A model generated the notes under the pieces. The model was not told the DNA's origin. It was given only the letters and a program-made list of their open reading frames with translations, and did no database searches. Made by a program: the position numbers and the translations under genes. This document shows positions 13,743 through 63,834 of a stretch of DNA of 64,000 nt, one piece after another. This DNA comes from Octopus vulgaris. Taxonomy: Eukaryota. How positions within the stretch are numbered: the first letter of the stretch is position 1; each line of letters starts with the position of its first letter. Location: contig OX597817.1 of the NCBI GenBank assembly GCA_951406725.2, positions 161,324,001 through 161,388,000 on the forward strand. The letters run 5' to 3'.

Positions 13743-14289
13743 TAGACAAACCGCTATCTAGTTATTCCATCAATAGTGAAAAGATATAATCTATAATAAC
13801 CACGTAGAAATTAATGAAATATCTGATAATTATTATTCTAAAAATCTCATAACAAATCAAACGTTAAATTGACTATGCACGTTTCATTACTAAATATATA
13901 AATCAATAATAGTAAAATTTAATTTTAAAAAAATTTTAAATTCAATATTAATTCAATTTTAAAATATTTAACCACTCTTCAGGTCAAAAAAATAACGTAA
14001 GTAAATTTAGATATTATAATAAAACAATAAATATATGTATATTTACAGTAAATAATTAATAAAATTTAACAATATTAATGTAAAGCAAAAACATGACTTA
14101 TCTTATTGATGAAAACCAGTTAAAAGAAATTTTAAACTTTAAACTTACAATCTAACATTGTCAGTTTAACGTTTGATTTGTTATGAGATTTTTAGAATAA
14201 TAATTACCAGATATTTAATTAATTTCTATGTGGTTATTATAGATTATATATTTTCACTATTGATGGAATATCTAGCTAGTGGTTTGTCT
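13743..14289. mobile_element. fold-back PLE-like relic, about 130-bp diverged inverted arms
   Basis: 13743-13873 vs 14160-14289 reverse-complementary; (TA)n flanks; HHR inside. Confidence 0.7.
13869..13987 (-). ncRNA. decayed hammerhead with a long AT-rich stem II
   Basis: minus strand: TTGAC-CTGAAGA-GTGG..(AT-rich)..TAAT-GAAA-CGTGCA-TA-GTCAA. Confidence 0.5.
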
Positions 14290-15430
14290 CTAAATTTGAT
14301 ATATATATATATATATCTGATGAGCCTCTCAGTCTCCATCTACCAAATTTACTCAGAAGGCTTGGGACTAAAGTAGAAGACAGTTGCCCAATATGCTGCC
14401 CTGTGGAACTGAACCTGAAACCATGTGGTTGGCATGTAAAAGCACCCACTACACTCTCAGAGTGGTTAGTGTTAGGAAGGGCATCCAGCTGTAGAAAGTC
14501 TGTCAGATCAGATTGGAGCCAGGTGCAGCCATCTGGTTTGCCAGTCCTCAGTCAAATTGTCCAGCCCATGATAGCATTGAAAGCAGACGTTAAACAATGA
14601 TGATGAAAATCTTATTATATCTTTATAATTAAAATATTTATTAGGAATTGTATTAAAAATTGTTAAAATATTTTGTGTAGTGTGGAAGTATAACCAATTT
14701 GTTGCTCATAGATTTTAACAACAAAATTTTATATGGACCTCCAAAGGTCACATGGACCCCGATTGAGAAACACTGATCTAAAATGCCTCTCTGTTTTAAG
14801 TTGGTGAGATGTGAATTTGGGAAATCGAGCATTGATGTAAAGGTTTCTCTTGTTTGTTATGGGTTAGTTAGTTAGTTCTTGTAGTCTGTTGGTGTTATGT
14901 TACCTATCAGGTAAACAAATCTGTAGACATATGGTGTGTGCATGTGTGTGTATGTTTGTAATGGATACAGTATCCTTGATGTGTAAGCCATAATGTAGGG
15001 TAGGGCATGTTTTTGCTGTTTATGGAAACAACAGCTGGTTTAGACTTGAAATATTTTTTCGTGACCCTCAAGTGGAAATTGAACCATTCTGATCCAATTT
15101 TTGCAACTTGGAGACAATGGGGTTCACAGCAAGCACTGGGTTCTCATCTATCCCTAGCTATATATTAGCTATAAAGAGTACACCACAAACTCAAATGTTA
15201 ATTACTCTTTCTTTGTTCCACACATGCATGCATGCACGCGCACACACACACACACTTCCATACAGTTCTCATTTGCAAAATCCACTCACAGGGCTTTGGT
15301 TGGTCCAGGACTATAGTAGAAGACACTTGCACAAAGTGGTACACAGTGAGACTGAACCTGGAATCGTGTGGTTGCCAATCAAACTTCTTAATCTCACGTG
15401 CATGCCTGCACCTGCAATACATATGTGTGT

Positions 15431-15461
<31 letters not shown>

Positions 15462-16651
15462 CTCTTGGAGTTGTTGGCATTAGGAAGGGCATCCAGCTGT
15501 AGAAACTCTGCCAGATCAGATTGGAGCCTGGTGCAGCCATCTGGTTCGCCAGTCCTCAGTCAAATCGTCCAAACCATGCCAGCATGGAAAGCGGATGTTA
15601 AACGATGATGGTGATGGTGATGATGATGATGATGGATTTCTCAAAAAATCATTGCGGTTCCTGTATGTAAAGTTGGGCCTCCCATAAACTTTGATGCCCT
15701 AAAAACATTTTCTCCTGAATATGTGCATTTAAAATTGGGTTGCTTGTAATGTACCTGTGTATCTTTCATACATCAAATACGATAATTATTTCATCCCAGA
15801 TCTGTGTAGATAATCAGTCAGACCAATTGCTCAGACATTCCAAGTTCGACCATTCCCTGGTTTTATTCCAACACTTTTATTCCAAAATTGTCTTGGACTA
15901 TTTTTATCCAAATCAGCGCTCCCTTTATTTTTTTGAAACATTGGAATGTAACTTAAGGGAAATTTGGTGGCTATGTCTAGCAGACCAAGTGATCATGTAG
16001 TGGCTCCCTGAATGGCTCTTTGAGTGTAGTGTGAGTATCCATGCTGATCCATTTATGCTTCTGCGGTAGAATACACACGCATGCACAAGCACAACGACTC
16101 ACATATACTCACGCACAGAAGTATGTACTCACATGCACACATACCAAAAACAGTAAGCTTCTAATTTTTAATGACAATTACCTATTGAAGCCCGGCCCAA
16201 GAGACTGAACATTTTAAGATCACTCAGCAAAAAGACTCTAGAGAGTTCCATAGCCATTTCCTCACCCATTCCCTCCACTACCACATTTACCCCTCTCCCT
16301 TACAACAGACGTATACATACTTATTATTATACATATAGATTGCAGATAGCTGAGGCGTGGCAGTACATAGGCAAGCGTTAGCTGACCATAAACTCTATAA
16401 CTGCTTGTTAGGGTTTCATCAAGCAGACAGCTTGTGGCTGATATCAAAGCTGAAATATCAAAGCGAGTCAACATTGTGTAACAGCTTTTCTGTGGGAGAG
16501 CTTCATTGGAAAAATATGTCAAGCTGGCATCTTTTGATTTCTATAGATTTGGCTTGGAATCTGCTGATAATGAACACGGGCTGGAGATCAATAAGATATG
16601 GTCGACTGTTTGCTGATTGGTAGACTATTGATTTTTAGGCAAGAAGCAAAG

Positions 16652-16685
<34 letters not shown>

Positions 16686-17146
16686 ACACCCATGCTTTGT
16701 TATTTCTGTATTGATATAATAGTGCAGCAGTCTGAATTTCTTTCACGTGTAGGTGATAATGTTTGTAACTGAATTTATAAACATGGCCAGAGAGGTGCAG
16801 TGTTTTGTTATTTCATCGAGTGGGACAGTTAGTATTAAAAAAACAAAAAAAAACAAATGTTTCATATCACAGGTGGTAATGGGTGGAAGTCGTTGTGTTT
16901 ACTCGTTATTGTGTGCTTCATGTTATTGCTATTGTTAAGAGTAGCCTCGTTCAGCCTTGCTCGGGCAGTCTTTTGAGATGGAGACATCCAATCAAATACT
17001 CAGCATTATCCCTCACACATCGAGTTTCGCTGTAGTTTGGAAGCACACCGCGTATTGCTTTATTCTATCGGACAATTGTTTGGGATGATGTGGTGTAGCT
17101 ACTAACTACAGGACATTGCTGTAACCCCTCAACAACTCAGTATACC

Positions 17147-17753
17147 TATTTCTTTACTGCCCACAAGGGGCTAAACACAGAGGGGACAAACAAGGACAGA
17201 CAAACAGATTAAGTCTATTATCTATTACATCGACCCAAGTGCATAACTGGTACTTAATTTATCGACCCCGAAAGGATGAAAGGCAAAGTCGACCTCAGCG
17301 GAATTTGAACTCAGAACGTAAAGACAAACGAAATATCTATTTCTTTACTTCCCACAAGGGGCTACAAACACAGGGGACAAACAAGGACAGACAAACAGAT
17401 TAAGTCTATTACATCGACCGCCAGTGCGTAACTGGTACTTAATTTATCGACCCCGAAAGGATGAAAGGCAAAGTCGACCTCGGCGGAATTTGAACTCAGA
17501 ACGTAACGGCAGACGAAATACCTATTTCTTTACTGCCCACAAGGGGCTAAACACAGAGGAGACAAACAAGGGCAGACAAACGGATTAAGTCTATTACATC
17601 GACCCCAGTGCATAACTGGTACTTAATTTATCGACCCCGAAAGGATGAAAGGCAAAGTCGACCTCGGTGGAATTTGAACTCAGAACGTAACGGCAGACGA
17701 AATACAGCTACACATTTCACCTGGTGTGCTAACGTTTCTGCCAGCTCGCCACC
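17147..17753 (-). mobile_element. SINE family B, head-to-tail trimer
   Basis: three units of about 187 bp with B-box GAGTTCAAATTCC and core GTCGACTTTGCCTTTCATCCTTTCGGGGTCGAT. Confidence 0.88.
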
Positions 17754-18831
17754 TTACAACTCAATATTCTATTAGGGATAAAACTAAACCTAAATCCTTT
17801 TTCATAATCTAAATCCTTTAAAAATGCTAATCCCTTCTTGCCTGGTCTGAATTCCTATGACAGTATTATTTGTTCTCCTTTTTCTATTTCCAATACAAAA
17901 ATGCATAAGACATATTGGCTACAGTTTGAAACCCAACTGACAGAATATAACAGTGAGGTATCAGTCAAATCCTGGGGATCGATATAATCGATTATACTGC
18001 CCCCCCACACTCACCCCACCCTCCCAAAAAAATATAAAATATTGAGACCTTTATGCTCATGTTAGAAATCAATACATTAGACTGAATGTGTTGTTGGTAG
18101 TGGTCGTGGTGGTGGAAGTAGTGTTTATGGTTGTGGTGGTGGTGGTGGAAGTAGTGTTTATGGTTGTAGTGGTGGTGGTGGTGGAGGTGGTGGTTGTCAT
18201 CATCGTCATTGTTTCGATGATATTTGTGGCTATTTTGGTCTGTTTGTTAATATGTGAGGAGATATTGGGGGAAAAACAATCTGCTACCAACTCTCCACAC
18301 AACACGTCCTCGTTATCCCACCGCACCACACCTGCCCAACGTGCCCTGACCACCACACAACACTCCCCCACTCAACACCCCCGCATATAACAAGTTCTCA
18401 CTGCTACACCTTATCATAGACAACTCGTCCTCACAACCACCCCACATGTCCTCATTATCACACTACAACATACACAGCATGTCTTAACTACTACACTACG
18501 CTATGCTCCACACAGCATGTCTTTACAACCACTCTACATCCTCACACATGTCCCGATCACACATACACACACACACACACCATACTACATCCCATACATT
18601 GTGTCTTCTCAACCATATTACATCTCACACACACGTTCTTTCTACGCACACACATCTCACCACACCGCTCACAACTACACTACGCCGTCCCCACATGTCT
18701 TCACAACTATGCTACGTCCCCTACACACAACGTGTCTTGTCTTTGCACATGTCCCTTACAACATTTTCTAATGGCCACACTATATCCTGACACATGTCTA
18801 GACTGTTACACACACACACACACACTCTCTC

Positions 18832-18879
<48 letters not shown>

Positions 18880-19730
18880 CCTCCCTCCCTAACTCATGCA
18901 CACCTCATTTGCATCATACTCTAAACTTCCACACTATACCTCCTCACAGAAGATCATCATCATTGTTTAACGTCCACTTTCCATGCTAGCATGGGTTGGA
19001 CGATTTGACTGAGGTCTGGCGAACCAGATGGCTGCACCAGACTTCAATCTGATCTGGCAGAGTTTCTACAGCTGGATGCCCTTCCTAACGCCAACCACTC
19101 TGAGAGTGTAGTGGGTGCTTTTACATCCATAGTATATTCTTCACCATCACATTGTACTCCACACAACGTTCTCAGTGCTACCCTATATCCCTGCCTAAGA
19201 GTCCTAAGAGCTACTCATTATACCCCTCACAAAATGTCCATGCTTTTTCTATGACTAGTCTACTACGATCCCAAGGCGAATGGCCTAGTGGTTAGGGTGT
19301 CGCACTAATGACCTTGAGATCAAGGTTTCAGTTCCTGGACCGAGTGGTGCATTGTATTCTTGATCTCACTTTGCTCTGCGACCACTTTGACACCTGACAT
19401 GTGGTACACTGTACACCTGTCCAGGCATTGTCAGTTTGATGGAGGGAGTGAGCTTAATGTACAGCACATACATTCGATCGCTAGGAACAAATCCTCTGTG
19501 CAGTTTGTTCAGCAAGAAATTGCAGAACCGTCTTTCTTGGACAGCGAGAGACTACCATCATCATTATCATTGCACTATAACCCAAATGGAATCTAGAAAT
19601 AAGTATATCAGTTGAACACTTTAGCATTCAGATTATTGTCAGGTGTATTGTCAGTGTGACAAGGCTGATTCTTTTTGCTATACAGGTACCACTCATTTTT
19701 TGCCAGCTGAGTGGAGCAGCGTGAAATAAA

Positions 19731-19912
19731 GTTAGTTAGTTAGTTAGTTAATTTTTTGGCTCAAAAAGCAAAAAGCAAGGCCATGTAGGGGGACATGGAG
19801 TTATGTACAGGGTGGTGTTCATGTAAAGAGTTCAGGCCACTTGTGGTCAAGGGTGACTTTGAACTGAGCGGTCGTCGGCATCTTCACTATCTCGTCCGGC
19901 AGCTTAATCCAC
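19731..19912 (-). mobile_element. CR1-like LINE 3' end with a (CTAA)n tail
   Basis: minus strand WIKLPDEIVKMPTTAQFKVTLDHKW; flanking GAAATAA duplication. Confidence 0.7.
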
Positions 19913-20091
19913 GAAATAAGTGTCTTGTTCAATGATATAGTGCACAGCCGAGAATCAAACACACGGCCTTACAATCGCGAACCGAATGCCCTAACCACTA
20001 AACCATGCACCTTCACATTCCAGTTTAAATGCTAAAGGATTAAAGGTCTGTTAGGGATAATTCTAAAATTTTCACTCTTCATACTGTATAT

Positions 20092-20123
<32 letters not shown>

Positions 20124-20609
20124 TGTGTACAGTGCTCAGGTGCACTACAACTCATCTAAAGTGTATATATAATCAGGTGTAGTTTCGGCGGATTTCGGAA
20201 AGCATGAGAGCCTTAAAGGATGCAGCGTCATGGCAGTCAACAACTGATGCAGGCAGTTTATTCCATGCTTCAGCAACTCTGAGCGTGAAAAAATGTTTCC
20301 GAAAGTCATACCCTGGATTTCCGACTGTACCTCTACTGCTTTACCATAGATCTATGTTTGTAAAATAGATCTCTCCACAGTGTCTTAGATCTATGTAGAG
20401 TACCAAACATTTGCCACTGCACTATAGTTCTACCTTCGCAAATGTATCACTCTACTATAGATGTATGCCTTTATTATAGATCTACCACAGTACCAAAGGT
20501 CTGCCAATGCAGTACTGTGTGTGTGTGTGTGTGTTTTCTTTGTTGTGAGTATTCTGTATTGCAATGTTTGAATGGGTTCATTTGTGTGCATGCTCTGTGT
20601 ATCGATTGA

Positions 20610-21063
20610 ATATGTAGTTGCTTGTGTGTGTTTGTGTGTATGGTTGTTTGTGTGTGTGTATGGGTGTTTGTGTGCATGTGTGTGTGTATTGTTGTTTGTG
20701 TGTGTGTGTGTGGGTGTTTGTGTGTGTGTGTGTAGTTGCTTGTGTGTGTGTGTGGTTGCTTGTGCGTGTGTGTGTGTGTGTGTATTGTTGTTTGTGTATG
20801 TGTGTGGGTGTTTGTGTGTGTGTGTGTGTGTAGTTGCTTGTGTGTGTGTGTGTGTTTACTTGTGTGTGTGTGTGTGTGTGTATTGTTGTTTGTGTATGTG
20901 TGTGGGTGTTGTGTGTGTGTGTGTGTGTAGTTGCTTGTGTGTGTGTGTGTGGTTGCTTGTGCGTGTGTGTGTGTGTGTGTATTGTTGTTTGTGTATGTGT
21001 GTGGTTGCTTGTGTGTATGTGTGTGGTTGCTTGTGTGTATTGTTGTTTGTGTGTGTGTATTGT

Positions 21064-21094
<31 letters not shown>

Positions 21095-21619
21095 TGTTGC
21101 TTGTGTGTGTGTGTGGTTGCTTGTGCGTGTGTGTGTGTGTGTGTGTTTGTTGTTTGTGTATGTGTATTGTTGCTTGTGTATGTGTGTGGTTGCTTGTGTG
21201 TATGTGTGTGGTTGCTTGTGTGTATTGTTGTTTGTGTGTGTGTATGGGTGTTTGTGTGCATGTGTGTGTATTTGTTGTTTGTGTGTGTGTGTGGGTGTTT
21301 GTGTGTGTGTGTGTAGTTGCTTGTGTGTGTGTGTGGTTGCTTGTGCGTGTGTGTGTGTGTGTGTATTGTTGTTTGTGTATGCATATTGTTGCTTGTGTAT
21401 GTGTGTGGTTGCTTGTGTGCATGTGTGTGTATTGTTGTTTGTGTGTGTGTGTATGGGTGTTTGTGTGCATGTGTGTGTATGTGTAGTTGCTTGTGTATGT
21501 GTATGGTTGCTTGTTTGTATATGTGTGTGGGGGTGTTTGTGTTCATGTGTGTGCGTGTGTGGTTGCTTGTGTGTGAATGTATTGTGTGTGGGTGTTTGTG
21601 AGCATGTGTGTGTAGTTGC

Positions 21620-21688
<69 letters not shown>

Positions 21689-21712
21689 TGTGTCTGTCTG
21701 TATGTGTGTGTG
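20610..21712. repeat. (TG)n-based complex satellite
   Basis: GTTGCTT / ATTGTTGTTT motifs interleaved with (TG)n. Confidence 0.92.
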
Positions 21713-21852
21713 TCTATGCTGCAGTCCAAAGACTGAAGGAAGATGAATGTGAGGAGTAGCAATATACCGACAGCTTTTTGCTGAGTCCCCACCCTCGCCA
21801 TACTGGTATGGTGAATGCAGTTAAAGTTCAGCTTGAGATTGACAGAGACATG

Positions 21853-21911
<59 letters not shown>

Positions 21912-22491
21912 AAATGGAAGTTAGAGGAGAGAGGACATAATTGTAGAAACTATTGACAGGGGACAAAAAAAATAATATACCCAAACAACCACAACAGTAG
22001 GAAACGTTTGATTGGGACAACAAACGAAGGTGAAGGTCACAGCCATAAATAGACGTTGATGAAGCAATTATCTCACTTGTCGCTCGAATGAGTGGGAGTT
22101 ACCTCCCTTCCCCTCTCTCTCCCATCCCCAGCAAAGCTGTCTCCCCCCCCTTCTCTCTCTCTCTCTTTTAATTCTCCAAGCTGTTGCATCAATTAACGAT
22201 TTTCTATTTATCAATGAAAACCTTGTAAGGGAGCTTCAACGTTGTCTCTTGACCTGCTAAAATCAGCCGTCAATTATCCATTAAATTTACACTCAACTGT
22301 TTTTAATAATGAATTGAATTAAAGACCGTAGCATGGATGTGTAGTTAAAAAGTTATCTTTGCAACCATGTAGTTTCTGGTTCAGTCCCACTGCATGGCAC
22401 CACCTTGGACGAATTTGTTTGGTAGAAACTGTGTAGAAGCCCTCTCTCTCTCTCTCTCTCTCTCTTATATATATATATATATATATTATAT

Positions 22492-22690
22492 TTTATTTTA
22501 TAGAGGAGCTTCTACAGGACTAGAACTGTTTAATTCAAAAGAAATCATCAGGAAGCCCTTCCTGATGATTTCTTTTGAATGAAACAGTTCTAGTCCTGTA
22601 GAAGCTCCTTCTATAAAATAAATTAATTTACTCTGCTATGTATTGAGTACCTTATTTACTGTGGTTAACCCCGACTCAACCCGGGACCTA
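22492..22690 (+). mobile_element. fold-back PLE-like relic (about 64-bp arms plus 3' tail) in (TA)n
   Basis: 22492-22555 vs 22558-22622 inverted; HHR in arm. Confidence 0.7.
22558..22604 (+). ncRNA. type I hammerhead ribozyme in a short fold-back PLE relic
   Basis: CTTC-CTGATGA-T TTC(TTTT)GAA T-GAAA-CAG(8 nt)CTG-TA-GAAG. Confidence 0.72.
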
Positions 22691-22729
22691 CATATATTTA
22701 TATATATATATATCTTTGTTTCAGTCTCT

Positions 22730-23050
22730 GAGACGCGTGCTTATAGTGATAAATTATCTGGTTATTGACAATTTAAGTCTATTTTCGGCATATTTGGCAT
22801 TGGAATTTTTTTCTTTTGCCTTTGTTTATAAATTTAACCTTTAAAGGTATTTTTTAATATGCTAGCCACTGATAGAATTTTTTCGAAAAAATTCTATCAG
22901 TGGCCAGCATATTAAAAAATACCTTTAAAGGTTAAATTTATAAACAATTTATAAACAACGGCAAAAGAAAAAAATTCCAATGCCAAATATGCCGAAAATA
23001 GAATTAAATCGTCAATAACCAGATAATTTATCACTATAAGCACGCGTCTC
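22730..23050. repeat. spacer-less palindrome, arms about 155 bp, centre 22884/22885
   Basis: GAGACGCGTG...TTTTTTCGAAAAAA...CACGCGTCTC; 11-bp duplication in the right arm. Confidence 0.9.
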
Positions 23051-23088
23051 GAAAGCAAGCAGACAGAAATTTCTAAAAAATTTCGTTA

Positions 23089-23150
23089 TTATCGGATCGG
23101 CCCCGATTTCTGAGTTAATTCATTTAGAATTTTCTCGTCATCAGCGATAA
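23089..23150 (-). ncRNA. type I hammerhead ribozyme
   Basis: minus strand: TTATCG-CTGATGA-CGAG..CTCA-GAAA-TCGG(GG)CCGA-TC-CGATAA. Confidence 0.75.
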
Positions 23151-23766
23151 ATACGATATGAAAATAAATTCTTATCGTATTTTATTGAAAGAAAAATGGT
23201 GAATTGATGACAGTGAACTTATTGGACATGGTGTTGAAAGGTGGGTTCAGTGCTGTCCAACACTTTATCCACTCAAAACAGATTCATACACTGGAAATTC
23301 TTGGATTCTTGGAACAGTTGCATGAACTTCCTGAGTTTAAGAAGTGGTCTTACTCAGTCACGGGTTGACTTCAACCATCACCACGTGTGTGTGTATTTAT
23401 GTGTATTTGTATTTGATGACTGGTGTTGTCTTGTTTACATCCCTGTAACTTAGCAATTCACCAAAAGAGACTAATAGAATAAGTAGCAAACAAAAAAGAA
23501 GTCCTAGGGTCAGTTGGTCTGACTAAATCCTTCAAGGTGGTGTCCCAGCAGGACTGAAGTCTGATGACTGAAACAAAAATTGTAAGATATTGGATTGTGA
23601 TCTCTTAGATAAACCATGTATGAAACAAAACTGTTTGGGATGGTCATGGCTGAAGCAGGGAGCACTTTTCTTTGTAGGTCTGCTCAGTCAGAACAGGCCT
23701 GGAGTTAAACAACTACAACAGTAGGCATAGGCATAGCTGTGTGGTAAGAAGTTTACTTCTTACATA

Positions 23767-25015: not shown

Positions 25016-25049
<34 letters not shown>

Positions 25050-51173: not shown

Positions 51174-51236
<63 letters not shown>

Positions 51237-52885: not shown

Positions 52886-53228
52886 GTGAGTTCTACCTTA
52901 TTAATTTGCTTTACATCAAAACTTTTACAAAACAATAGGGTCTTTCTTTAGAGTAAAGTAAAGTAAGGCAGGTCCTTAATTTCAGTGCATATATTTTTGA
53001 TTTAAAAAAGAAAAAATTACAAGTACAGGAGGAAATCGGCGTTTCAGAAGTTTGAAGTTTGTTTCCCAAGCCTGTAGTCTTGAGTTCAGTTCCAGTGCAC
53101 AGTTCCTTGGGCAAAGGTCTTCAACTATAGCCCTGGGCCAACCAAACCCTTGTGAGTGGATTTGGTGAATGGAAACTGTAAGAAACCTGTCATGTATGTG
53201 CGTGTGTGTGTGTGTATATATATATATA

Positions 53229-54337: not shown

Positions 54338-54507
54338 ATGGATCTCGGTACTAAACAATGCCAAGGAAGAAGTGTTACTGAAAGCATTCCAAGACAACAG
54401 CAATTCCACCTCGATAAATCAGAGTGTCCGTGAACTGACATGTAGCATCATTGAACGAGTGAAGCAGTTGCCTGGCAACAAGACATGCTGCGATTGTGGA
54501 GCACCAG
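54338..54507 (+). CDS. ASAP1: ASAP exon (PH end, ArfGAP start): WISVLNNAKEEVLLKAFQDN...VKQLPGNKTCCDCGAP
   Basis: ttacag / gtattt; PH invariant Trp and first CxxC of the ArfGAP zinc finger; phase 2-1. Confidence 0.97.
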
Positions 54508-54704
54508 GTATTTTCTCTTCTTTTTTTTTTTCATACTTTCTTGATGTGGTTTCCTGGGCAACATTAGCTTGCTGTCATCACTGTAATCAAACTTATTATT
54601 GTGTTGTAATAACTGCTGTCATCGTCGTTGTCATCATCATCATCGCCATCATTATCATGACTGTCATCATGACCTTCATCATCATCATTACCACCACCAC
54701 TACT

Positions 54705-55585
54705 ACCACCACATTGCCATTGCTATGTTACCACCAATATGCCCCTCCCACAATCCTTACCACCACATTGGCATTGCTATGTTACCACCAATATGCCCCT
54801 CCCACAATCATTACCACCACATTGGCATTGCTATGTTACCACCAATATGCCCCTCCCACAATCATTACCACCACATTGGCATTGCTAAGTTACCACCAAT
54901 ATGCCCCTCCCACAATCATTACCACCACATTGGCATTGCTATGTTACCACCAATATGCCCCTCCCACAATCATTACCACCACATTGGCATTGCTATGTTA
55001 CCACCAATATGCCCCTCCCACAATCATTACCACCACATTGGCATTGCTATGTTACCACCAATATGCCCCTCCCACAATCATTACCACCACATTGGCATTG
55101 CTATGTTACCACCAATATGCCCCTCCCACAATCATTACCACCACATTGGCATTGCTATGTTACCACCAATATGCCCCTCCCACAATCATTACCACCACAT
55201 TGGCATTGCTATGTTACCACCAATATGCCCCTCCCACAATCATTACCACCACATTGGCATTGCTAAGTTACCACCAATATGCCCCTCCCACAATCATTAC
55301 CACCACATTGGCATTGCTATGTTACCACCAATATGCCCCTCCCACAATCATTACCACCACATTGGCATTGCTATGTTACCACCAATATGCCCCTCCCACA
55401 ATCATTACCACCACATTGGCATTGCTATGTTACCACCAATATGCCCCTCCCACAATCATTACCACCACATTGCCATTGTTACGTTACCACCAATATGCCC
55501 CTCTCACAATCATTACCATCACTACCACCACATTGCCATTGCTACGTTACCACCAATACGCCACTCCCACAATCATTACCACCAC
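54705..55585. repeat. 54-bp minisatellite, about 16 copies, highly homogeneous
   Basis: unit ACCACCACATTGGCATTGCTATGTTACCACCAATATGCCCCTCCCACAATCATT. Confidence 0.95.
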
Positions 55586-55729
55586 CATCGCCACTGTCAC
55601 TATGACCCAAACACCCCTACTACAAACACCACTACTACCTCTACTACTGCCCTTAACACTACCATCAATGATCAGTTTCACCACCACCACCACTTACAAT
55701 ACCATATCTACCTATTTCTTTCTTTGCAG

Positions 55730-55863
55730 ATCCAGAATGGTTGTCCACCAACTTGGGTATCTTGATCTGTCTGGAGTGCTGTGGTATTCATCGTGAGGTT
55801 GGTGTCCACATCAGTAGGACACAGAGTATTGTCATAGATGAACTTGGTACATCCCAGCTGCTG
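55730..55863 (+). CDS. ASAP1: ASAP exon (ArfGAP): [45 protein letters not shown]
   Basis: ttgcag / gtatgt; completes CxxC-x16-CxxC-x4-R including the catalytic Arg; phase 1-0. Confidence 0.98.
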
Positions 55864-56193
55864 GTATGTACCTCTTTGCTGTCACATATTACTCTCAGGT
55901 ACCTCAAGTTATTGGCTATAGCAAGCTATGGCATTTTCCTGTATCTTCTTTTGTTTGTTTCGGTCATTGGGTGGCACCCCTTACTGGGGTACTGCTTGAA
56001 AGGGTTTTAGTTAGTTAAACAAATTGGCCCTAGTGATTATGTTCTGTTTTTTTTTTTTAAAGTCTCATAATTTTTCATCAGTCCTTTTGGTCAAACTGCT
56101 TCATTACAGGAACATAAACAAACCAACATTGGTTGTAAAGAGGTGCAGTGGGGGAACAAACACAAGATACAAACACACACACATACACACACA

Positions 56194-56285
<92 letters not shown>

Positions 56286-56307
56286 ATGTTACATTACTCG
56301 GTAGTCA

Positions 56308-56370
56308 AGATAAAACTCTGAGTTTCAGATGCCGAAGTGGAAATCCACAACACCATCTCTTCGGTTATCT
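56308..56370 (-). ncRNA. mirror copy of the PLE hammerhead
   Basis: reverse complement of 58414-58476. Confidence 0.72.
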
Positions 56371-56565
56371 GGCTATTTGAAAACGTTATGAAAAAATACC
56401 GTTAAAAATGAAGGGAAATTACTCTGTTATAACTCTGCTTTGCCTGCGTACTTATACATCGCTCGCATTTTTCGTCATAAAAATTATATAAAAATACATA
56501 AAAATATATATAAAATATATAAAAATATATAAAATCTTCTTGGGACATAACACAGAAAGCATGTT

Positions 56566-57348
56566 CTATCCGTTTTCTTTAGGGGACCAAAAACGTAACA
56601 GAAATTTAGTCACATGTGGGCATGATCCGAAAAGTTCTGTCCTTGTATTTAGACATGTGGTAGGGTCTAAGCTGCTTTTCCAGATAAGCCATCTCTCCAT
56701 GTCGCATAAACCGCACCTTCCGCTGCCGTTAGTATAGGGCTTACATCTGGCCAAAATCTTCCATTGTATGTTATAATCGACACCTTTATCTCTTAAAGAC
56801 CAAATATGATTGGATAATTGTGTCGCTTTTCTTTTGTTCCAGTGCCTAAAGCTCAAAGTGTGGTTATTGAACCTGGCCTTGAAATTACCCTCTGTCAGGC
56901 CCACGTATTTCTTCGTCAAAACGGTGTCTTTAGTGGTTATAGAGTTTACGGTAGCTTCATATATGATGGTCTTGGACATGCAAGCTCCATTTAGCGGGCA
57001 CAATTCTTTATTCCTGCATGAACAGCTGTTTTCTTCTTGTGTTTTTTGTATGTTATGATTGATTATGTTTTTAAAATTGGTAGTTGAACTAAAACTAATT
57101 TTTAAATTGTGTCTATTGAAGAGTTTCCTATAAGCATGGTTAACTGGAAAATGTCTATCTATCAGTGCTAGGAAATATTTACCTATATTGAAGGCCACCT
57201 CGGGTGAGTAAGGGGGCGTAAACCAGATGACCTTCCTATTTCTATTATTCCTTTTCCTTATTGTTGGGCTGGTGATAGGTGTATATTTTATTTTTTCGCT
57301 AAAACCACTATCTTTTAAAGCTTTATTATAAACTGGGGCAACGCTATT
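56566..57348 (-). CDS. inverted copy of the PLE GIY-YIG endonuclease ORF fragment
   Basis: ORF track gives the identical 210-aa translation for 56566-57198 (-) and 57587-58219 (+). Confidence 0.85.
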   Translation of the reverse strand, partial: NSVAPVYNKALKDSGFSEKIKYTPITSPTIRKRNNRNRKVIWFTPPYSPEVAFNIGKYFLALIDRHFPVNHAYRKLFNRHNLKISFSSTTNFKNIINHNIQKTQEENSCSCRNKELCPLNGACMSKTIIYEATVNSITTKDTVLTKKYVGLTEGNFKARFNNHTLSFRHWNKRKATQLSNHIWSLRDKGVDYNIQWKILARCKPYTNGSGRCGLCDMERWLIWKSSLDPTTCLNTRTELFGSCPHVTKFLLRFWSPKENG

Positions 57349-57370
57349 TAGTTAAAAATTTAGTTAAAAA

Positions 57371-58219
57371 TTCAAAAATTTAGTTAAAAATATTAGTAAG
57401 AGGATTTCTAGCCTCTCATCTAATGAGGACATCTTCAATAGCGTTGCCCCAGTTTATAATAAAGCTTTAAAAGATAGTGGTTTTAGCGAAAAAATAAAAT
57501 ATACACCTATCACCAGCCCAACAATAAGGAAAAGGAATAATAGAAATAGGAAGGTCATCTGGTTTACGCCCCCTTACTCACCCGAGGTGGCCTTCAATAT
57601 AGGTAAATATTTCCTAGCACTGATAGATAGACATTTTCCAGTTAACCATGCTTATAGGAAACTCTTCAATAGACACAATTTAAAAATTAGTTTTAGTTCA
57701 ACTACCAATTTTAAAAACATAATCAATCATAACATACAAAAAACACAAGAAGAAAACAGCTGTTCATGCAGGAATAAAGAATTGTGCCCGCTAAATGGAG
57801 CTTGCATGTCCAAGACCATCATATATGAAGCTACCGTAAACTCTATAACCACTAAAGACACCGTTTTGACGAAGAAATACGTGGGCCTGACAGAGGGTAA
57901 TTTCAAGGCCAGGTTCAATAACCACACTTTGAGCTTTAGGCACTGGAACAAAAGAAAAGCGACACAATTATCCAATCATATTTGGTCTTTAAGAGATAAA
58001 GGTGTCGATTATAACATACAATGGAAGATTTTGGCCAGATGTAAGCCCTATACTAACGGCAGCGGAAGGTGCGGTTTATGCGACATGGAGAGATGGCTTA
58101 TCTGGAAAAGCAGCTTAGACCCTACCACATGTCTAAATACAAGGACAGAACTTTTCGGATCATGCCCACATGTGACTAAATTTCTGTTACGTTTTTGGTC
58201 CCCTAAAGAAAACGGATAG
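57371..58219 (+). CDS. PLE polyprotein C-terminus (RT thumb/linker + GIY-YIG endonuclease), 5'-truncated, no stops
   Basis: RKVIWFTPPYS..NIGKYFL..LFNR; CSCRNKELCPLNGAC (CxCx5Cx5C); IIYEA..YVGLT..FKARFNNH; CGLCDME..LN. Confidence 0.88.
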   Translation, partial: FKNLVKNISKRISSLSSNEDIFNSVAPVYNKALKDSGFSEKIKYTPITSPTIRKRNNRNRKVIWFTPPYSPEVAFNIGKYFLALIDRHFPVNHAYRKLFNRHNLKISFSSTTNFKNIINHNIQKTQEENSCSCRNKELCPLNGACMSKTIIYEATVNSITTKDTVLTKKYVGLTEGNFKARFNNHTLSFRHWNKRKATQLSNHIWSLRDKGVDYNIQWKILARCKPYTNGSGRCGLCDMERWLIWKSSLDPTTCLNTRTELFGSCPHVTKFLLRFWSPKENG

Positions 58220-58413
58220 AACATGCTTTCTGTGTTATGTCCCAAGAAGATTTTATATATTTTTATATATTTTTATATATTTTTATGTATTTTTATATAA
58301 TTTTTATGACGAAAAATGCGAGCGATGTATAAGTACGCAGGCAAAGCAGAGTTATAACAGAGTAATTTCCCTTCATTTTTAACGGTATTTTTTCATAACG
58401 TTTTCAAATAGCC

Positions 58414-58476
58414 AGATAACCGAAGAGATGGTGTTGTGGATTTCCACTTCGGCATCTGAAACTCAGAGTTTTATCT
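58414..58476 (+). ncRNA. type I hammerhead ribozyme of the young PLE (variant core CCGAAGA)
   Basis: stem I AGATAA/TTATCT; core CCGAAGA; stem II GATG..CATC(T) with inner GTGGA/TCCAC; GAAA; stem III CTC-A-GAG; GUU cleavage triplet. Confidence 0.75.
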
Positions 58477-59090
58477 TGACTACCGAGTAATGTAACATAT
58501 TGTATAGATAAATTTCCTCTATTTACATAATATTGAGGTCTCTTTCTTTCTTTTGTTATCTTACCGTTTTATCAATATATATATATATATATATATATAT
58601 GGTTCTACGCATGCCAACATGGAACATGGGTGTTAGATAATGATTCTGAGTTCAAATACCATGAGGTCGGCTTTGCTCTTCATCCTTTTGAAGAGGCTGT
58701 AAATAAAACAGCAGTCCTACGTGCTGGTTGAAGGTTGATTCCTCCTCTCTCTCTCTCTCTCTCTTTCTCTAAAATATTGTATTCATATACACACAATATA
58801 TATATATATATAGGTTAGGGCAGCGAACTTGCGGTTGTAGGATCATGGTTTCGATTCCCAGACCAGGGGTTGTGAGTGTTTATTAAGAAAAAACACCTAA
58901 AGCTCCACGAGGCTCCAGCAGGGGGTTATGGCGATCCCTGGTGTACTCCTTCACCGCAACTTTCTCTCACTCTTTCTTCTGTTGGCCTGATCGCTTAGCC
59001 AGCCGGGTGGCGTCATTTGAAGGTTAAAACAATGCAAAGCACATTGTGACCAGCGATGTGTAGCAACATCTGATAGCCTGGTCGGTCATG

Positions 59091-59124
<34 letters not shown>

Positions 59125-59126
<2 letters not shown>

Positions 59127-59344
59127 GCAAATAAGTAACAAGGATGTCCAGGTATTAGTGTATTATGGCCGTTTCAAGTGGCTCCATTTAATCAATCAAT
59201 GCAAGCATTACATCAGTTTGAAATACACCGGTGTATTTCAAATTATTTCAAATTGGTGTAATGTTTGCATTGATCGATTAAATAGAGCTGTCTGAAACGG
59301 CCGTAATGCACTAGTATCTGGACATCCTTGTTACTTATTTGCTT
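59125..59344. repeat. palindrome (centre CACCGGTG, 59226-59233) carrying the 3' half of a hammerhead
   Basis: diverged arms of about 105 bp; GAAA-CGGCCG-TA-ATGCA at 59294-59310; (TA)n flank. Confidence 0.78.
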
Positions 59345-59439
59345 TTCATTCGCCTTACTTCGAGCCAAGCAGATGATACCAGACTGACTTGGTGCCTCAA
59401 CTTAGGTATCTAATTCAACTGAATTTTAATTATTTCTTT

Positions 59440-59480
<41 letters not shown>

Positions 59481-59508
59481 CTTATATGATCTTGTATCTC
59501 CATTTCAG

Positions 59509-59603
59509 TTAGCAAGAGCGGTGGGTAACAGCAATTTCAATGACATCATGGAAGCCAAATTAGCATTTGACACTTCACTGAAACCAAAGGCGACAAGTGG
59601 CAT
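59509..59603 (+). CDS. ASAP1: ASAP exon (ArfGAP): LARAVGNSNFNDIMEAKLAFDTSLKPKATSGM
   Basis: tttcag / gtaagt; VGNxxFNDIMEA motif; phase 0-2. Confidence 0.96.
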
Positions 59604-59633
59604 GTAAGTACATGTTCTATCTCTCTTCTCTGT

Positions 59634-59672
<39 letters not shown>

Positions 59673-60769
59673 TACATATCTTTTTGTTTCTACTTACTGG
59701 GTCCCAAGCAAGGTGCAGTGTCTATGGTCTATACAGGCCCTCCAAAACCAATGAGATTGATGCTATTAATGTTTTCCTTGAGCCTTTCTAAGTCAACACC
59801 AAAAGAATGATATGAACAGGAAAGAAATCCTGGCAGATCAATTTTTGCCATTCATCTCTTGAGTCAGTAACAAAGAATTAGGAGTCAATTAAATCAACTG
59901 ACTCCCCTTCACAGAGTTTTTAAGCCTTATACCTATCATAGAAGCAATCATTACTATTTATCTCCCTAGCATCCACAATTAAAACAGTCATGTACCATGG
60001 TTGATGTAACTGACTAAACTCCTCCCTTCAAAATTACTGGTGTTGTGTTGTTATTGTTATTAGTCTTAGAGCTGCTGGAATCATTAGCATGTTTAGCCCT
60101 TTAGTATTTGAACTGGTGGCAAGCTGGCAGAATCGTTAGCACGCCGGGTGAAATGCTTAGCGGTATTTCGTCTGCCGTTACATTCTGAGTTCAAATTCCG
60201 CCGAGGTTGACTTTGCCTTTCAACCTTTCGGGGTCGATTAAATAAGTACCATTTACGCACTGGGGTCGATATAATCGACTTAATCCGTTTGTCTGTCCTT
60301 TTTTTGTCCTCTCTGTGTTTAGCTCCTTGTGGGTAATAAAGAAATAAGTATTTGAACTGGCTATATACAGCTCATATATTCTACCAGCTCTATGTTCACG
60401 GTGGCCAGATTTGGTCTCACACACCAACCCTATGACATCATTCTAAAAAGTAACTGTTGTTTCACCAACATCACAGATCTCCAAGATAATGTGTGATTAA
60501 TTCAAAACATGTACGAGCGTGATCATTGCCAGAGCAACAAGCTGGCCTCCGTGCCAGTGGCACGTAAAAAACACCATTCGAGTGTGATCATTACCTGTGT
60601 TGCCTTACTGGCACTTGTGTTGGTGGTACGTGATGAATAGATTCGGAAAAAACGTGAAAAAAACATTGTTTCTGAGTCTTAGATTAGTTTAACAAACTCC
60701 TTTGTCCCAGAGAAATTCTTGACAGTTTATTATTTATTTATTTTTTTGTGCTGTTGCTTCTTTGATCAG

Positions 60770-60950
60770 GAACAAACGTCGAGAGTTTATCAAGGCGAAA
60801 TATGAACAGCACAAATATGTGATCCAGACATGCACAGACAAGGAAGACTTGAAACAGGAACTGCAACAAGCAATTGCATCAAAGGACGTGTTTGCACTGC
60901 TGCAGGTACATGCTGAGGGATTGGAGCTGATGACAACCCTGCCAAATACA
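60770..60950 (+). CDS. ASAP1: ASAP exon (ArfGAP end): NKRREFIKAKYEQHKYVIQTC...LLQVHAEGLELMTTLPNT
   Basis: gatcag / gtacgt; RxEFIxAKY and LxQVxAEGxEL motifs; phase 2-0. Confidence 0.96.
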
Positions 60951-60955
60951 GTACG

Positions 60956-60989
<34 letters not shown>

Positions 60990-61764
60990 ATACTGTTATT
61001 GCTGGGTGGCCTTAATCCAGCAGACCTTTTTTTTTTTTTTTTTTTTGCCCTTTTCAAGCCTAGCCAGGCTCATGGGCCCGGTTTCTGTGGTGTATGTGTT
61101 CCCCCCAGCTGGATGGGACACCAGTCCATCGCAGTGTTACTCAAGAAACAGGAAGAGAGAGTGAGAGAAAGTTGTGGCAAAAGAGTACAACAGGGGTTGC
61201 CACCACCCCCTGCCGGAGCCTTGTGGAGCTTTTAGGTGTTTTCGCTCAATAAACACACACAACGCCCGGTCTGGGAATCGAAACCGTGATCCTCTGACCG
61301 CGAGTCCGCTGCCCTAACCATTGGGCCATTGCGGCTCCACTCATCCAGCAGACCTATGATCACCTTAATCCAGCGGACCTGTGATCAAAGACATTCCAGC
61401 CATGGCAATCATGTATTTCTTAATTGTATCCAGAACTGTAATATTTAACATGTGTATTTTTTCTGTTTAATACAATACGATGTGACCTCCAGCAGCTGGA
61501 TGTCCATTTAAAGATACCACATGGGCTTGTATGTGTGTGCATATGTGTGTGAATTCTGTTGTGTCTTTGTTGATACAATATATATATGTGTGTGTGTGTG
61601 TGTGGTGACTGCTGTGTACTTGGTTGATACAAGATGTATGGTTGTGTATGTTTGTGCATGTGTGCATAGTACCTGTGTTAGTAGTTTGTATGCGTATATA
61701 CTCACAGGTGAAATAACACAAATGAAATGAGGGGAAATAAGTGACGGATAGATGTAACTCTCTC

Positions 61765-62142
61765 TCTCTTTTACTTGTTTCATTCACTTGACTGTGGCCA
61801 TGCTGGGACAACGCCTTTAGTCGAGCAAATCGACCCCAGGACTTATTCTTTATAAGCCTAGTACTTAGTCTATCAGTCTCTTCTGCCGAACCGCTAAGTT
61901 ACGGGAACATAAACACACCAGCATCAGTTGTCAAGCAATGTTGGGGTGACAAACATAGACACACACACACACATATATATGACAGGCTTCTTTCAGTTTC
62001 CATCTACCAAATACACTCACAAGGCTTTGGTTGGCCCGAGGCTATAGTAGAAGACACTTGCCCAAGGTGTCATGCAGTGGGACTGAACCTGGAACCATGT
62101 GGTTGGTAAGCAAGCTACTTACCACACAGCCACTCCTGCGCC
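61765..62142 (-). mobile_element. SINE family A, full-length copy
   Basis: reverse complement of the family A consensus. Confidence 0.88.
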
Positions 62143-62565
62143 TCATGTGAAAAACAAAATAGGAACTTTGAAAGATGCGTTTATAAAACTAGTTTTTAAA
62201 AATCAAATGGCTATGGGGTTCACTAGAATAAAATAGTAATCCAAGGGATGTGAAAATGGTTGAGAGCCACTAGTCTGTATTATACTACATATGGCATATG
62301 ATCTGTTGGTTAAGAGTGCGGACTACTAACCCAAGATTCTGAGTTCTATTCCAGGCAGTGACCTGAACAATAATAATAATAATAAAAATAATAATAATTT
62401 TCTTATGGTTTCTTAAACATTCTCTCGAACAACACTATGTACAAAACCAAATATATGGTACCCTAGGCATAATACCAAGATGAACTTCCAACTTGTTGTC
62501 TCCTGAGGTCTCTGAGTGAGACTTGGAGCCAACTTGTACAAATGTAAAGCAAAAGTCAAACATAA

Positions 62566-62597
<32 letters not shown>

Positions 62598-62649
62598 CAA
62601 CATTGAAAATACCTTAGGAATAAGAACCTAGGTTTGAAATTTCCCCCAA

Positions 62650-62695
62650 GACACCTGATGAAGGCTGGAGGGTATATTAGCTGAAACGTTACATT
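62650..62695 (+). ncRNA. minimal hammerhead in a short PLE-like repeat (about 62600-62746); second copy at 24872-25015 (-)
   Basis: GACAC-CTGATGA-A-GGCTG..TAGCT-GAAA-CG-TT; the other copy supplies CAGCC and GTGTT for stems II and I; both abut (AAT)n. Confidence 0.6.
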
Positions 62696-62827
62696 AGCAA
62701 CAAACAAGATGAGGACAAATATCCGTCAAATGTAAATAATGTACATGTGTGTTGTTTAAGTACCCTGTGACCTACATGTAGCCACCCAGAGATATTGCAT
62801 TGTATGTTCTATAATTGTATTTTTCAG

Positions 62828-62919
62828 GAGAATGATGAGACTTCACTGCACATGGCAATTAGTCAAGAAGATGGAAACAGTTTACATATGGTGGACTTTA
62901 TTATACAGAATAGCAGTAT
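62828..62919 (+). CDS. ASAP1: ASAP exon (first ankyrin repeat): ENDETSLHMAISQEDGNSLHMVDFIIQNSS
   Basis: tttcag acceptor; ETxLHxA ankyrin motif; donor gtaagt at 62920 (an overlapping gtatgt at 62916 is an alternative). Confidence 0.94.
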
Positions 62920-63750
62920 GTAAGTATGGGGGCTAAGGTGATGGTGGGTTAAATTGTGAGTTTGATTACTGGGTGGTGACCAGTTTTAAGTATTGGAACC
63001 ATTGGTGGAATGTAGTATGTGCTGGGTTCATGACTAGGTGTGGTTTTTCAACACTTAATATCCAGATGTACCCGGCAGGACAAGTGAGTCCATAACCCGT
63101 GGCCTTCTACATGGGATGGAGCCAGCCTACGTATGCATACCTTCCCTTCTTGGGACACAAAACTCTACTTGTGAAGACCTGTTGAGGCAAGTGAGGATCA
63201 GAATCGAAATCGATCAATGGAAATTGCAGATGTGTTACCAGTGCCGGTGGCATGTAAGAGAACCTTCCGTTTCGCGACCGTTGCCAGCGCCGCCCCGACT
63301 GGCCTCGTGCCGGTGGCACGTAAAAAGCACCATCCGTTCGTGTCCGTTGCCAGCCTCGCCTGTCCCTCGTGCCGGTGGCACATAAAAAGCACCATCCGTT
63401 CATGGCTGTTTGCCAGCTCTGTCTGGCACCTGTGCGGGTGGCACGTAAAAAGCACTCACTACACTCATGGAGTGGTTGGCGTTAGGAAGGGCATCCAGCC
63501 GTAGAAACACTGCCAGATTTGACTGGGCCTGATGAAGCCTTCTGGCTTCACAGACCCCAGTAGAACCGTCCAACCCATGCTAGCATGGAAAACGGACGCT
63601 AAACGATGATGATGATGATGACAGCATTTGGACTATGTGTGTGTGTTGTGTGTGTATAGTTTTTCAATCTTCCATCTTTTATATCTACGTCTTTCTCACT
63701 TTTGCTCTCATCCTATCGTCCCATTTTTAGTTTCTTATGCTATGTGGGCA

Positions 63751-63834
63751 GTACCTGATGATTGTGATAGGATACCAGACATGTTAAAAAATACTGTCTG
63801 GCATGCTCTTGGCACATGAAACTAATAGTAGCAC
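63751..63834 (+). ncRNA. type I hammerhead ribozyme
   Basis: GTAC-CTGATGA-T TGTG..[CCAGACA/TGTCTGG]..CACA T-GAAA-CTA(A)TAG-TA-GCAC. Confidence 0.68.

What the first reader, a model, noticed from the sequence alone, without database searches (positions are those of the whole stretch)
13869..63834. Hidden set of at least eight unrelated hammerhead ribozyme families in the introns of one gene
Seen: type-I HHR topology (stem I - CUGAnGA - stem II - GAAA - short stem III - NUH - stem I') at 13869(-), 22558(+), 23089(-), 31365(-), 31740(+), 58414(+)/56308(-), 62650(+)/24922(-) and 63751(+), plus a 3' half at 59294. The stems differ between families but keep their pairing. Most sit in (TA)n or (AAT)n tracts, and several in fold-backs. 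Established: PLE terminal repeats carry minimal HHRs with short palindromic stem III that are proposed to cleave as dimers. Inference: this genome hosts a diverse, microsatellite-associated PLE/HHR (possibly retrozyme-like) system at about one motif per 6-8 kb that protein-based annotation would miss.
Basis: partly seen in the sequence, partly recalled or inferred. Interest (0 to 1): 0.85.

Follow-up and report, generated by a model that had tools for sequence, protein, structure and literature searches.

The report
Penelope retroelement hammerheads litter octopus introns
The hammerhead-shaped RNA motifs in this gene's introns are real, but they are end fragments of about ten repeat families (five tied to Penelope-like jumping-gene proteins, the rest likely so), a known feature that is about as dense elsewhere in this genome, and half of the copies here are decayed.

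Summary
Observation confirmed. All ten full motifs and the half motif lie at the stated coordinates, in introns of a plus-strand ASAP (ArfGAP) gene, and I found a tenth family (52640). Each motif belongs to a dispersed repeat family (24 to 6,725 exact pattern matches where counted; reversed control 0). Each family's majority sequence restores a type I hammerhead with a self-complementary stem III. Families A, E, F, G and I sit 3' of Penelope-like (PLE) endonuclease ORFs; family I is a young Hydra-clade element with intact 2.58-kb tandem copies. B is a 466-bp non-coding unit; C, D, H and J have no ORF link yet. The gene is not special: 400 kb of arbitrary genome gave 39 descriptor hits against about 5 in shuffles (one per ~12 kb, roughly 1-2 x 10^5 genome-wide). 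Five of the ten listed copies are decayed. PLE hammerheads in many divergent families per genome are published (PMC4209133). Less ordinary: the scale, a C4 (CCGANGA) core in a currently young family, and a tRNA-like head opening family A's terminal repeat (already noted by this scan on other DNA). Cleavage was not tested.

The parts
2898..62920 (+). Host gene: ASAP-type ArfGAP (BAR-PH-ArfGAP-ANK-SH3); 17 exon matches in the window (residues 66-628 of 1034), gene continues beyond both ends; all motifs are intronic
   Evidence: spliced join 59603->60770 (GT..AG) in contigs of 4 of 4 runs
13869..13987 (-). Family G hammerhead (CUGAAGA core, long A/U stem II); stem III palindrome decayed; part of a fold-back insertion 13727-14306
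   Evidence: EN-like matches upstream in 5 of 19 other loci (weak, E 1e-15 to 3e-4)
22558..22604 (+). Family C hammerhead, intact, but inside a 108-nt near-perfect palindrome (22503-22610) with a one-sided tail to ~22692, between (TA)n tracts
   Evidence: 6,325 exact pattern matches; -85.5 kcal/mol hairpin
23089..23150 (-). Family B hammerhead, intact; family is a 466-bp non-coding unit seen in partial tandem (retrozyme-like)
   Evidence: (80 exact matches)
24922..24964 (-). Family A hammerhead, decayed (U4A, no NUH)
31365..31414 (-). Family D hammerhead, old family, stem I with two mismatches; more decayed inverted partner at 31448-31529(+)
31740..31777 (+). Family E hammerhead, intact, U3-A8 core variant; family lies 3' of a GIY-YIG ORF with a CX4CX2C linker (Neptune-like by motif)
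   Evidence: (7 of 19 other loci)
52640..52684 (+).
   Evidence: (32 matches)
56271..58574 (.). Family I insertion: head-to-head pair of 5'-truncated Hydra-clade PLE copies in (TA)n; EN-bearing ORF pieces 56566-57351(-) and 57368-58219(+); ~61-nt tail on the right arm only
56308..56370 (-). Family I hammerhead, intact family form: CCGAAGA (C4) core, one extra base between stem II and GAAA
   Evidence: (4,297 exact matches, control 0)
58414..58476 (+). Family I hammerhead, identical to the 56308 copy
59125..59344 (.). Family H fold-back carrying only 3' halves (GAAA at 59294); the family itself has a whole hammerhead with a CCGAGGA core
   Evidence: 290 exact matches
62293..62398 (+). Family A 5' part: tRNA-like head (A-box and B-box-like motifs by eye) plus internal (AAT)n; separated from the hammerhead module by ~165 bp of other sequence
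   Evidence: not called a tRNA by ARAGORN (0 of 9 loci) or Rfam
62650..62695 (+). Family A hammerhead, core intact, stem I broken; family is the terminal repeat of a Penelope/Poseidon-like PLE
   Evidence: (6,725 exact matches)
63751..63834 (+). Family F hammerhead, one stem I mismatch; family lies ~200 nt 3' of an EN related to family I
   Evidence: (4 of 19 other loci)

Best explanation
The motifs are independent insertions of the 3' terminal repeats of about ten repeat families, five of them shown here to be Penelope-like retrotransposons and the rest likely so, each carrying a minimal type I hammerhead that is predicted to work in the element's own RNA and is likely inert in this gene. Shown: each motif is a dispersed repeat; family sequences restore the fold; A, E, F, G and I follow PLE ORFs; copies are 5'-truncated, often paired head to head, carry a one-sided tail and mostly end in (TA)n. 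Inferred from PAc biochemistry (PMC11167929): the element protein nicks A/T-rich DNA and starts reverse transcription just 3' of the terminal repeat, so most new copies are short pieces holding the hammerhead; template switching gives the fold-backs. Inferred: in tandem master copies the palindromic stem III lets two motifs pair, or the protein assists folding, and the RNA is cut. In the intron the copies are single, decay neutrally, or are locked in long hairpins with their inverted partner.
For: Repeat status with zero reversed controls. All 10 family majority sequences fit core + three stems, none similar to another. Stem III elements self-pair better as a duplex than as a hairpin in all 10. 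Intact 717-codon RT-EN frames in a 2.58-kb tandem, 99% identical to the window copy, hammerhead in each repeat; RWK, DKT, CxCX5C, CxxC, CxH motifs and no CCHH match the Hydra clade definition. Family A: RT (RVT_1, E 3e-11) and EN end followed by head in 18 of 20 and hammerhead module in 17 of 20 loci. (TA)n within 250 nt 3' in 20/20 E, 20/20 I, 18/18 C, 21/25 B, 15/20 G, 12/20 F, 11/20 H, 10/25 D against 20% background; inverted partner in 79 of the 198 loci of nine families plus 0 of 12 J loci. Compensatory pairs in family I stem II. Same density in arbitrary DNA. Both orientations occur in the introns.
Against: No ORF was found for B, C, D, H or J in the loci examined. A and J show no (TA)n preference (4/30, 0/12). 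Single-sequence folding does not give the full hammerhead as the minimum-energy fold for any of 7 window copies. 5' ends do not pile up at the predicted cut (1 of 484 deduplicated matches within 3 nt; the loci were mostly selected for carrying the core, which biases against it). Cleavage itself is untested, and the C4 core is reported to lower activity in vitro (PMC3088659). Locus sets include the window's own copy and both arms of some fold-backs, so counts are not independent.
Confidence: 0.85

Rival explanations
1. The fold is kept mainly as a protein-binding or reverse-transcription signal of the element, and self-cleavage is weak, protein-dependent or dispensable.
For: C4 is the majority core in families I (18 of 20) and H (16 of 20) and common in D (9 of 25) although CpG decay works against it; family I is young with intact ORFs; no 5'-end pile-up at the cut; PAc hammerhead mutants still insert and its ribozyme needs protein (PMC11167929).
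Against: Ten unrelated families keep GA, GAAA, NUH, the 3-8 pair (including the U3-A8 swap) and the stem III palindrome, which is what catalysis needs; related family I subfamilies carry U4; a natural U4C viroid variant stays functional in vivo (PMC3088659).
Confidence: 0.3
2. Several families (B, perhaps C, D, H, J) are non-autonomous retrozymes that circulate as small circular RNAs and borrow PLE enzymes.
For: B is a 466-bp unit without an ORF above 55 codons whose 3' end runs on into its own 5' end; B, C and D have longer stem III that could close in a monomer; C and H have long non-coding 5' regions; a 2026 preprint derives animal retrozymes from PLE repeats (abstract and introduction).
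Against: No long tandem arrays were seen: direct copies within 1.5 kb in 2 of 25 B loci and 0 of 18 C, 0 of 25 D; their truncation, inversion and tail pattern is that of PLE ends; no circular RNA evidence was obtained.
Confidence: 0.3
3. The ribozymes are co-opted regulators that cut the ASAP pre-mRNA in its introns.
For: The gene is spliced and expressed in the laid runs; three intact copies lie in sense (22558, 31740, 58414).
Against: Density equals that of arbitrary DNA; orientation is mixed; 5 of 10 copies are decayed; 22558 is locked in a -85 kcal/mol hairpin and 58414 has a 1.1-kb inverted partner; intact copies are simply the young families.
Confidence: 0.05
4. The motifs are chance matches in A/T-rich, microsatellite-rich DNA.
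For: A relaxed descriptor reaches 8 hits in 2 of 200 window shuffles; Rfam finds none.
Against: Every motif is a repeat family whose majority form is a better hammerhead than the window copy; 130,052 genome matches to CUGANGA-N7-35-GAAAC against 38,589 for the reversed pattern; 22 against 0.8 for the canonical core in 400 kb.
Confidence: 0.01

Closest known systems
Minimal type I hammerheads (min-HHRs) of metazoan Penelope-like elements (Cervera & de la Pena 2014, PMC4209133)
   Same: Type I topology, short stem I, long stem II, palindromic 15.2-16.2/loop 3, extra base after A9 (family A), U3-A8 variant (family E), many heterogeneous families per genome, mostly lone motifs or opposite-strand pairs 100-700 bp apart, few in full elements.
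   Different: Estimated count here is ~0.9-2.4 x 10^5 against ~2,000 (Schistosoma), ~4,000 (coelacanth), ~9,000 (Xenopus), with different descriptors; C4 cores, a bulge between stem II and GAAA (family I) and unpaired 10.1-11.1 (B, C, F) are not mentioned in the text I read (figures and supplements not seen).
Hydra-clade PLEs (Craig et al. 2021, PMC8557442)
   Same: Family I: unit under 3 kb, one RT-EN ORF, RWK and DKT motifs, CxCX5C linker, no CCHH, CxxC and CxH near the C-terminus, insertion in (TA)n, hammerhead present, inverted 5'-truncated copy and one-sided tail.
   Different: Described as a small clade mostly from cnidarians with few mollusc families; here one family has at least 4,297 hammerhead copies and looks recently active.
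Penelope/Poseidon PLE PAc of the green anole (Frangieh et al. 2024, PMC11167929)
   Same: Tandem masters, terminal-repeat hammerhead, optional tail, A/T-rich targets; family A has the same RT/EN type by motif.
   Different: Family A's repeat opens with a tRNA-like head and an internal (AAT)n; activity here is untested.
Non-LTR retrozymes (Cervera & de la Pena 2020, PMC7229834) and Schistosoma promoter-plus-hammerhead SINE-like repeats (as reviewed in PMC6765202)
   Same: Family B: small non-coding unit with a type I hammerhead in partial tandem; family A short copies: promoter-like head followed by a hammerhead.
   Different: No long arrays or circular RNA shown for B (466 bp, slightly above the 150-450 bp range); family A short copies are truncations of a coding PLE, not a separate SINE.

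Membership tests
Type I hammerhead ribozyme (minimal) | Core boxes in order with stems I-III and NUH | tested here: met
   10 of 10 family majority sequences; 5 of 10 listed window copies still intact
Type I hammerhead ribozyme (minimal) | Self-complementary stem III / loop 3 allowing dimers | tested here: met
   duplex more stable than hairpin in 10 of 10 families
Type I hammerhead ribozyme (minimal) | Compensatory changes in stems | tested here: inconclusive
   family I subfamilies only: 11 two-sided cells, 4 pairs, 12 hand-picked sequences; pairs-with-change count not above shuffles (225/500)
Type I hammerhead ribozyme (minimal) | Invariant U4 and G10.1-C11.1 pair | tested here: not met
   C4 majority in I and H; 10.1-11.1 unpaired in B, C, F; met in A, E and, allowing CpG decay, D, G
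Type I hammerhead ribozyme (minimal) | Self-cleavage after NUH | not testable with these tools
   no bench assay; only contigs available
EN+ Penelope-like elements | Motif lies in a terminal repeat 3' of an RT + GIY-YIG ORF | tested here: met
   I, A (58, 93), E (36, 93), F and G (27, 36)
EN+ Penelope-like elements | Same, for families B, C, D, H, J | tested here: inconclusive
   no linked ORF in 47 B, 40 C, 47 D, 42 H, 12 J loci of 3 kb (overlapping sets) or 7 longer stretches; one weak RT-like match upstream of one H copy
EN+ Penelope-like elements | 5' truncation, inverted partner, one-sided tail, (TA)n targets | tested here: met
   (TA)n not met for A and J
Hydra-clade PLE (family I) | RWK, DKT, CxCX5C linker, no CCHH, <3 kb, (TA)n | tested here: met
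   read from the 717-codon frame against the clade definition
Hydra-clade PLE (family I) | Placement in an RT phylogeny | not tested
   no reference set on hand; no tree built
Non-LTR retrozyme (family B) | Small non-coding tandem unit with type I HHR | tested here: inconclusive
   466-bp unit, partial tandem in L055; direct copies in 2 of 25 loci
Non-LTR retrozyme (family B) | Expressed as circular RNA | not testable with these tools
   no raw RNA reads offered
tRNA-derived SINE (family A) | Non-coding element independent of an ORF | tested here: not met
   head starts a few bases after the PLE ORF stop in 18 of 20 ORF-end loci
tRNA-derived SINE (family A) | tRNA-related head | tested here: inconclusive
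   A- and B-box-like motifs by eye; no ARAGORN or Rfam tRNA call

The most novel reading that the evidence does not exclude
This cephalopod genome holds on the order of 10^5 minimal hammerheads from dozens of PLE families, and some of its most successful families, including a young Hydra-clade element, have fixed a C4 core that should cripple unaided catalysis. Their hammerhead would then be a protein-activated switch, or a fold read by the element's RT-EN, rather than a free ribozyme, and the natural U4/C4 subfamily pairs give a ready test of what PLE hammerheads are for.
Probability: 0.3. Interest if true: 0.6.

Novelty: new member of a known kind. Interest (0 to 1): 0.33.

Why it matters
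The function of PLE hammerheads is open: they cleave poorly even as dimers (PMC4209133) and are dispensable for insertion in vitro (PMC11167929). This genome offers many independent families from at least three PLE clades, young intact masters, and natural core variants (U3-A8, C4, bulged stem II), which makes comparative tests easy. It also shows that Rfam misses a motif class that occurs about once per 10-20 kb here. For the host gene itself the motifs are most likely ordinary insertion debris.

Tried and rejected
Rfam scan of the window: no hammerhead family at E<=5. DNA search with the family I stretch returned nothing, not even itself, because common words are skipped; replaced by a pattern. 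ARAGORN and Rfam did not call the family A head a tRNA. Family A as a separate SINE: rejected. (AAT)n as a target: rejected. ORF links for B, C, D, H, J: not found; the 2.54-kb direct repeat at L397 is a host duplication, not an element unit. Pile-up of 5' ends at the predicted cut: not seen; one case only, the inverted arm of the window's G insertion (the family I row was mis-anchored and dropped, redone). The reversed control for CCGANGA-N7-35-GAAAC (160,651 against 50,178 real) loses the CpG and is uninformative. Control cores in 400 kb were not all flat: C3-U4-A8 8 vs 2.2, G3-C8 6 vs 1.3, U3-C4-A8 5 vs 1.2, unexplained, possibly decayed copies. No RNA holder listed on record as RNA; no evidence either way on expression. 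PDB search with the family I protein: nothing; Pfam gave only sub-threshold GIY-YIG for it; pairwise BLASTP of A and I proteins not significant. Lunse et al. (PMC5785218) is not held, known to me only by its title in a reference list; its text and supplements may already list octopus motifs or C4 cores. Searches that found no paper on octopus PLE hammerheads, a tRNA-headed PLE repeat or C4 cores in PLEs.
Full report
Setting. The window is G000:C4:161324001-161388000 of a 2.8-Gb genome. An ArfGAP exon retrieved an Octopus ASAP protein at 98% identity; its residues 66-628 map as 17 plus-strand exon matches from 2898 to 62920. All listed motifs fall between exons. Contigs from 4 of 4 laid runs carry the GT..AG join 59603->60770.

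Observation. The ten full motifs and the half motif are at the given coordinates. Three descriptors of falling stringency gave 3, 7 and 8 window hits against shuffle means of 0.1, 0.78 and 2.0 (0 of 100, 0 of 200 and 2 of 200 shuffles reached the observed value). These descriptors were written after I saw the motifs. Rfam matched no hammerhead family. The scan also showed a tenth family at 52640-52684. Five of the ten listed copies keep core, stem I and a self-complementary stem III; five are decayed.

Each motif is a repeat. Genome searches returned dispersed copies for all: A (62650/24922; 6,725 exact pattern matches), B (23089; 80), C (22558; 6,325), D (31365; 24), E (31740; 42 matches from 40 of 416 candidates), F (63751; 52 from 40 of 795), G (13869; 40 from 40 of 134), H (59294; 290), I (58414/56308; 4,297), J (52640; 32). 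Reversed controls were 0 for all six patterns. Alignments of 12-30 loci per family gave majority sequences that fit the type I fold in 10 of 10 families, with no blastn similarity between families, and stem III elements that pair better with a second copy than on themselves. Family H, half in the window, is whole in the family. Among 12 hand-picked relatives of family I, 84% of stem cells pair and two distal stem II pairs swap U-A/C-G and G-C/A-U; relatedness inflates such counts.

What carries them. Family I: a stretch on C1 holds four hammerheads about 2.58 kb apart with two intact 717-codon frames, 99% identical to the window insertion. The protein has RWK, DKT, a CxCX5C linker, CxxC and CxH near its end and no CCHH, the published marks of the Hydra clade (PMC8557442, section read). 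The window copy is a head-to-head pair of truncated copies in (TA)n with a tail of about 61 nt on one arm. Family A: loci chosen by an EN end carry RT (RVT_1) and, right after the stop, a tRNA-like head (18 of 20), (AAT)n and the hammerhead module (17 of 20). In 30 copies taken in genome order, 18 have the head and only 2 reach beyond it. So (AAT)n is internal and short copies are truncations. E follows a GIY-YIG ORF in 7 of 19 other loci (the query came from one of them). F (4 of 19) and G (5 of 19, weak) follow ENs related to family I. B is a 466-bp unit with no frame above 55 codons. No ORF was linked to C, D, H or J. (TA)n lies within 250 nt 3' in 40-100% of loci for eight families against 20% background, but in 4 of 30 A and 0 of 12 J loci; inverted partners are common. 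These sets include the window's own copy and overlapping loci.

Is the gene special? No. Forty 10-kb stretches at round-number positions on 29 contigs gave 23, 39 and 58 hits against shuffle means of 1.1, 4.9 and 13: one per 18, 12 and 9 kb. That extrapolates to about 1.5-2.4 x 10^5 motifs for the two stricter descriptors, from a small sample with some inverted pairs. Independently, CUGANGA-N7-35-GAAAC has 130,052 genome matches against 38,589 for the reversed pattern. The 39 hits fall into 24 clusters, four shared with window families (A, C, H, I); several singletons are probably chance.

How it works. Shown: anatomy and distribution above. From PMC11167929 (main text read): a PLE protein nicks A/T-rich DNA and starts reverse transcription at two internal sites that define the tail; its hammerhead cleaves only with protein and is not needed for insertion. 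From PMC4209133 (results and discussion read; figures and supplements not seen): minimal hammerheads cleave weakly and only as dimers. Inferred: the window copies are short cDNAs of terminal repeats; the ribozyme matters, if at all, in tandem master transcripts; lone intronic copies decay. The intact sense copy at 22558 is buried in a -85.5 kcal/mol hairpin. 5' ends of copies do not pile up at the cut: 1 of 484 matches (biased set). Contigs near-identical to the family I ORF occur in 3 of 4 runs and to its hammerhead end in 4 of 4, but these cannot show strand, origin or ends.

Known and not known. Many divergent minimal-HHR families per genome, lone and opposite-strand motifs and the U3-A8 variant are in PMC4209133; 16 families in one coral genome are in PMC7229834 (passages); microsatellite bias, inversions and tails are in PMC8557442 (passages). 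The giant squid paper reports 235 Rfam hammerheads (PMC6962438, passages). My searches found no paper on octopus PLE hammerheads, but Lunse et al. could not be read. Least ordinary: the count; C4 cores as family majority (I 18 of 20, H 16 of 20; 3 of 6 sampled copies of a further abundant family), where U4C is reported to lower in vitro activity (PMC3088659, passage); and the tRNA-like head of family A, which this scan had already noted on another piece of the genome (e1-8669850). A bioRxiv preprint (10.64898/2026.07.22.740005; abstract, introduction and part of methods read) derives animal retrozymes from PLE repeats. PMC6765202 was seen as passages; PMC10886601 only as reference-list passages and was not used.

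Verdict. Real, well observed, and a new set of members of a known kind. Interest 0.33.

Noticed in passing
   Followed up: partly
window 62293-62398 (+); L237-L256: Family A terminal repeat opens with a tRNA-like A/B-box head a few bases after the ORF stop; about 10 of 18 headed copies start within 12 nt of the head's 5' end, as if this were the transcript start.
   Followed up: partly
window 22730-23180; L055:1244-1965 (oriented): Family B is a 466-bp non-coding unit whose end runs into its own start; candidate retrozyme. Clusters of copies on C9 and C29 look like host duplications.
   Followed up: partly
L261, L271, L272, L278, L284, L291: An abundant hammerhead family absent from the window (6 hits in 400 kb), with both C4 and U4 cores and a two-base stem III.
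   Followed up: no
family C loci; window 22558: 35 of 53 family C matches have their 5' end 42-45 nt before the cut, i.e. at the first base of stem I, where a short palindrome seeds the inversion.
   Followed up: partly
window 14156: The inverted arm of the family G insertion begins exactly at the predicted cut site; the only such case among 484 matches.
   Followed up: yes
window 37104-37176 (-): Rfam tRNA match, 36.8 bits (above gathering 29), inside an ASAP intron; not examined.
   Followed up: no
window 62399-62561: About 165 bp of other repeat sequence splits the family A copy inside its (AAT)n linker; it is multicopy in the laid contigs.
   Followed up: no
window 17142-17705 and 23815-24365: Three-copy tandem arrays of 184-185 bp units of SINE-like sequence.
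   Followed up: no
window 46890-47948, 48974-49263, 51451-53610, 57276-57509: Further long fold-backs without a hammerhead hit; 51451-53610 spans ASAP exons.
   Followed up: no
L257-L296: Non-canonical core controls (C3-U4-A8, G3-C8, U3-C4-A8) were 3-5 times above shuffles in 400 kb; may hide further core variants.
   Followed up: no
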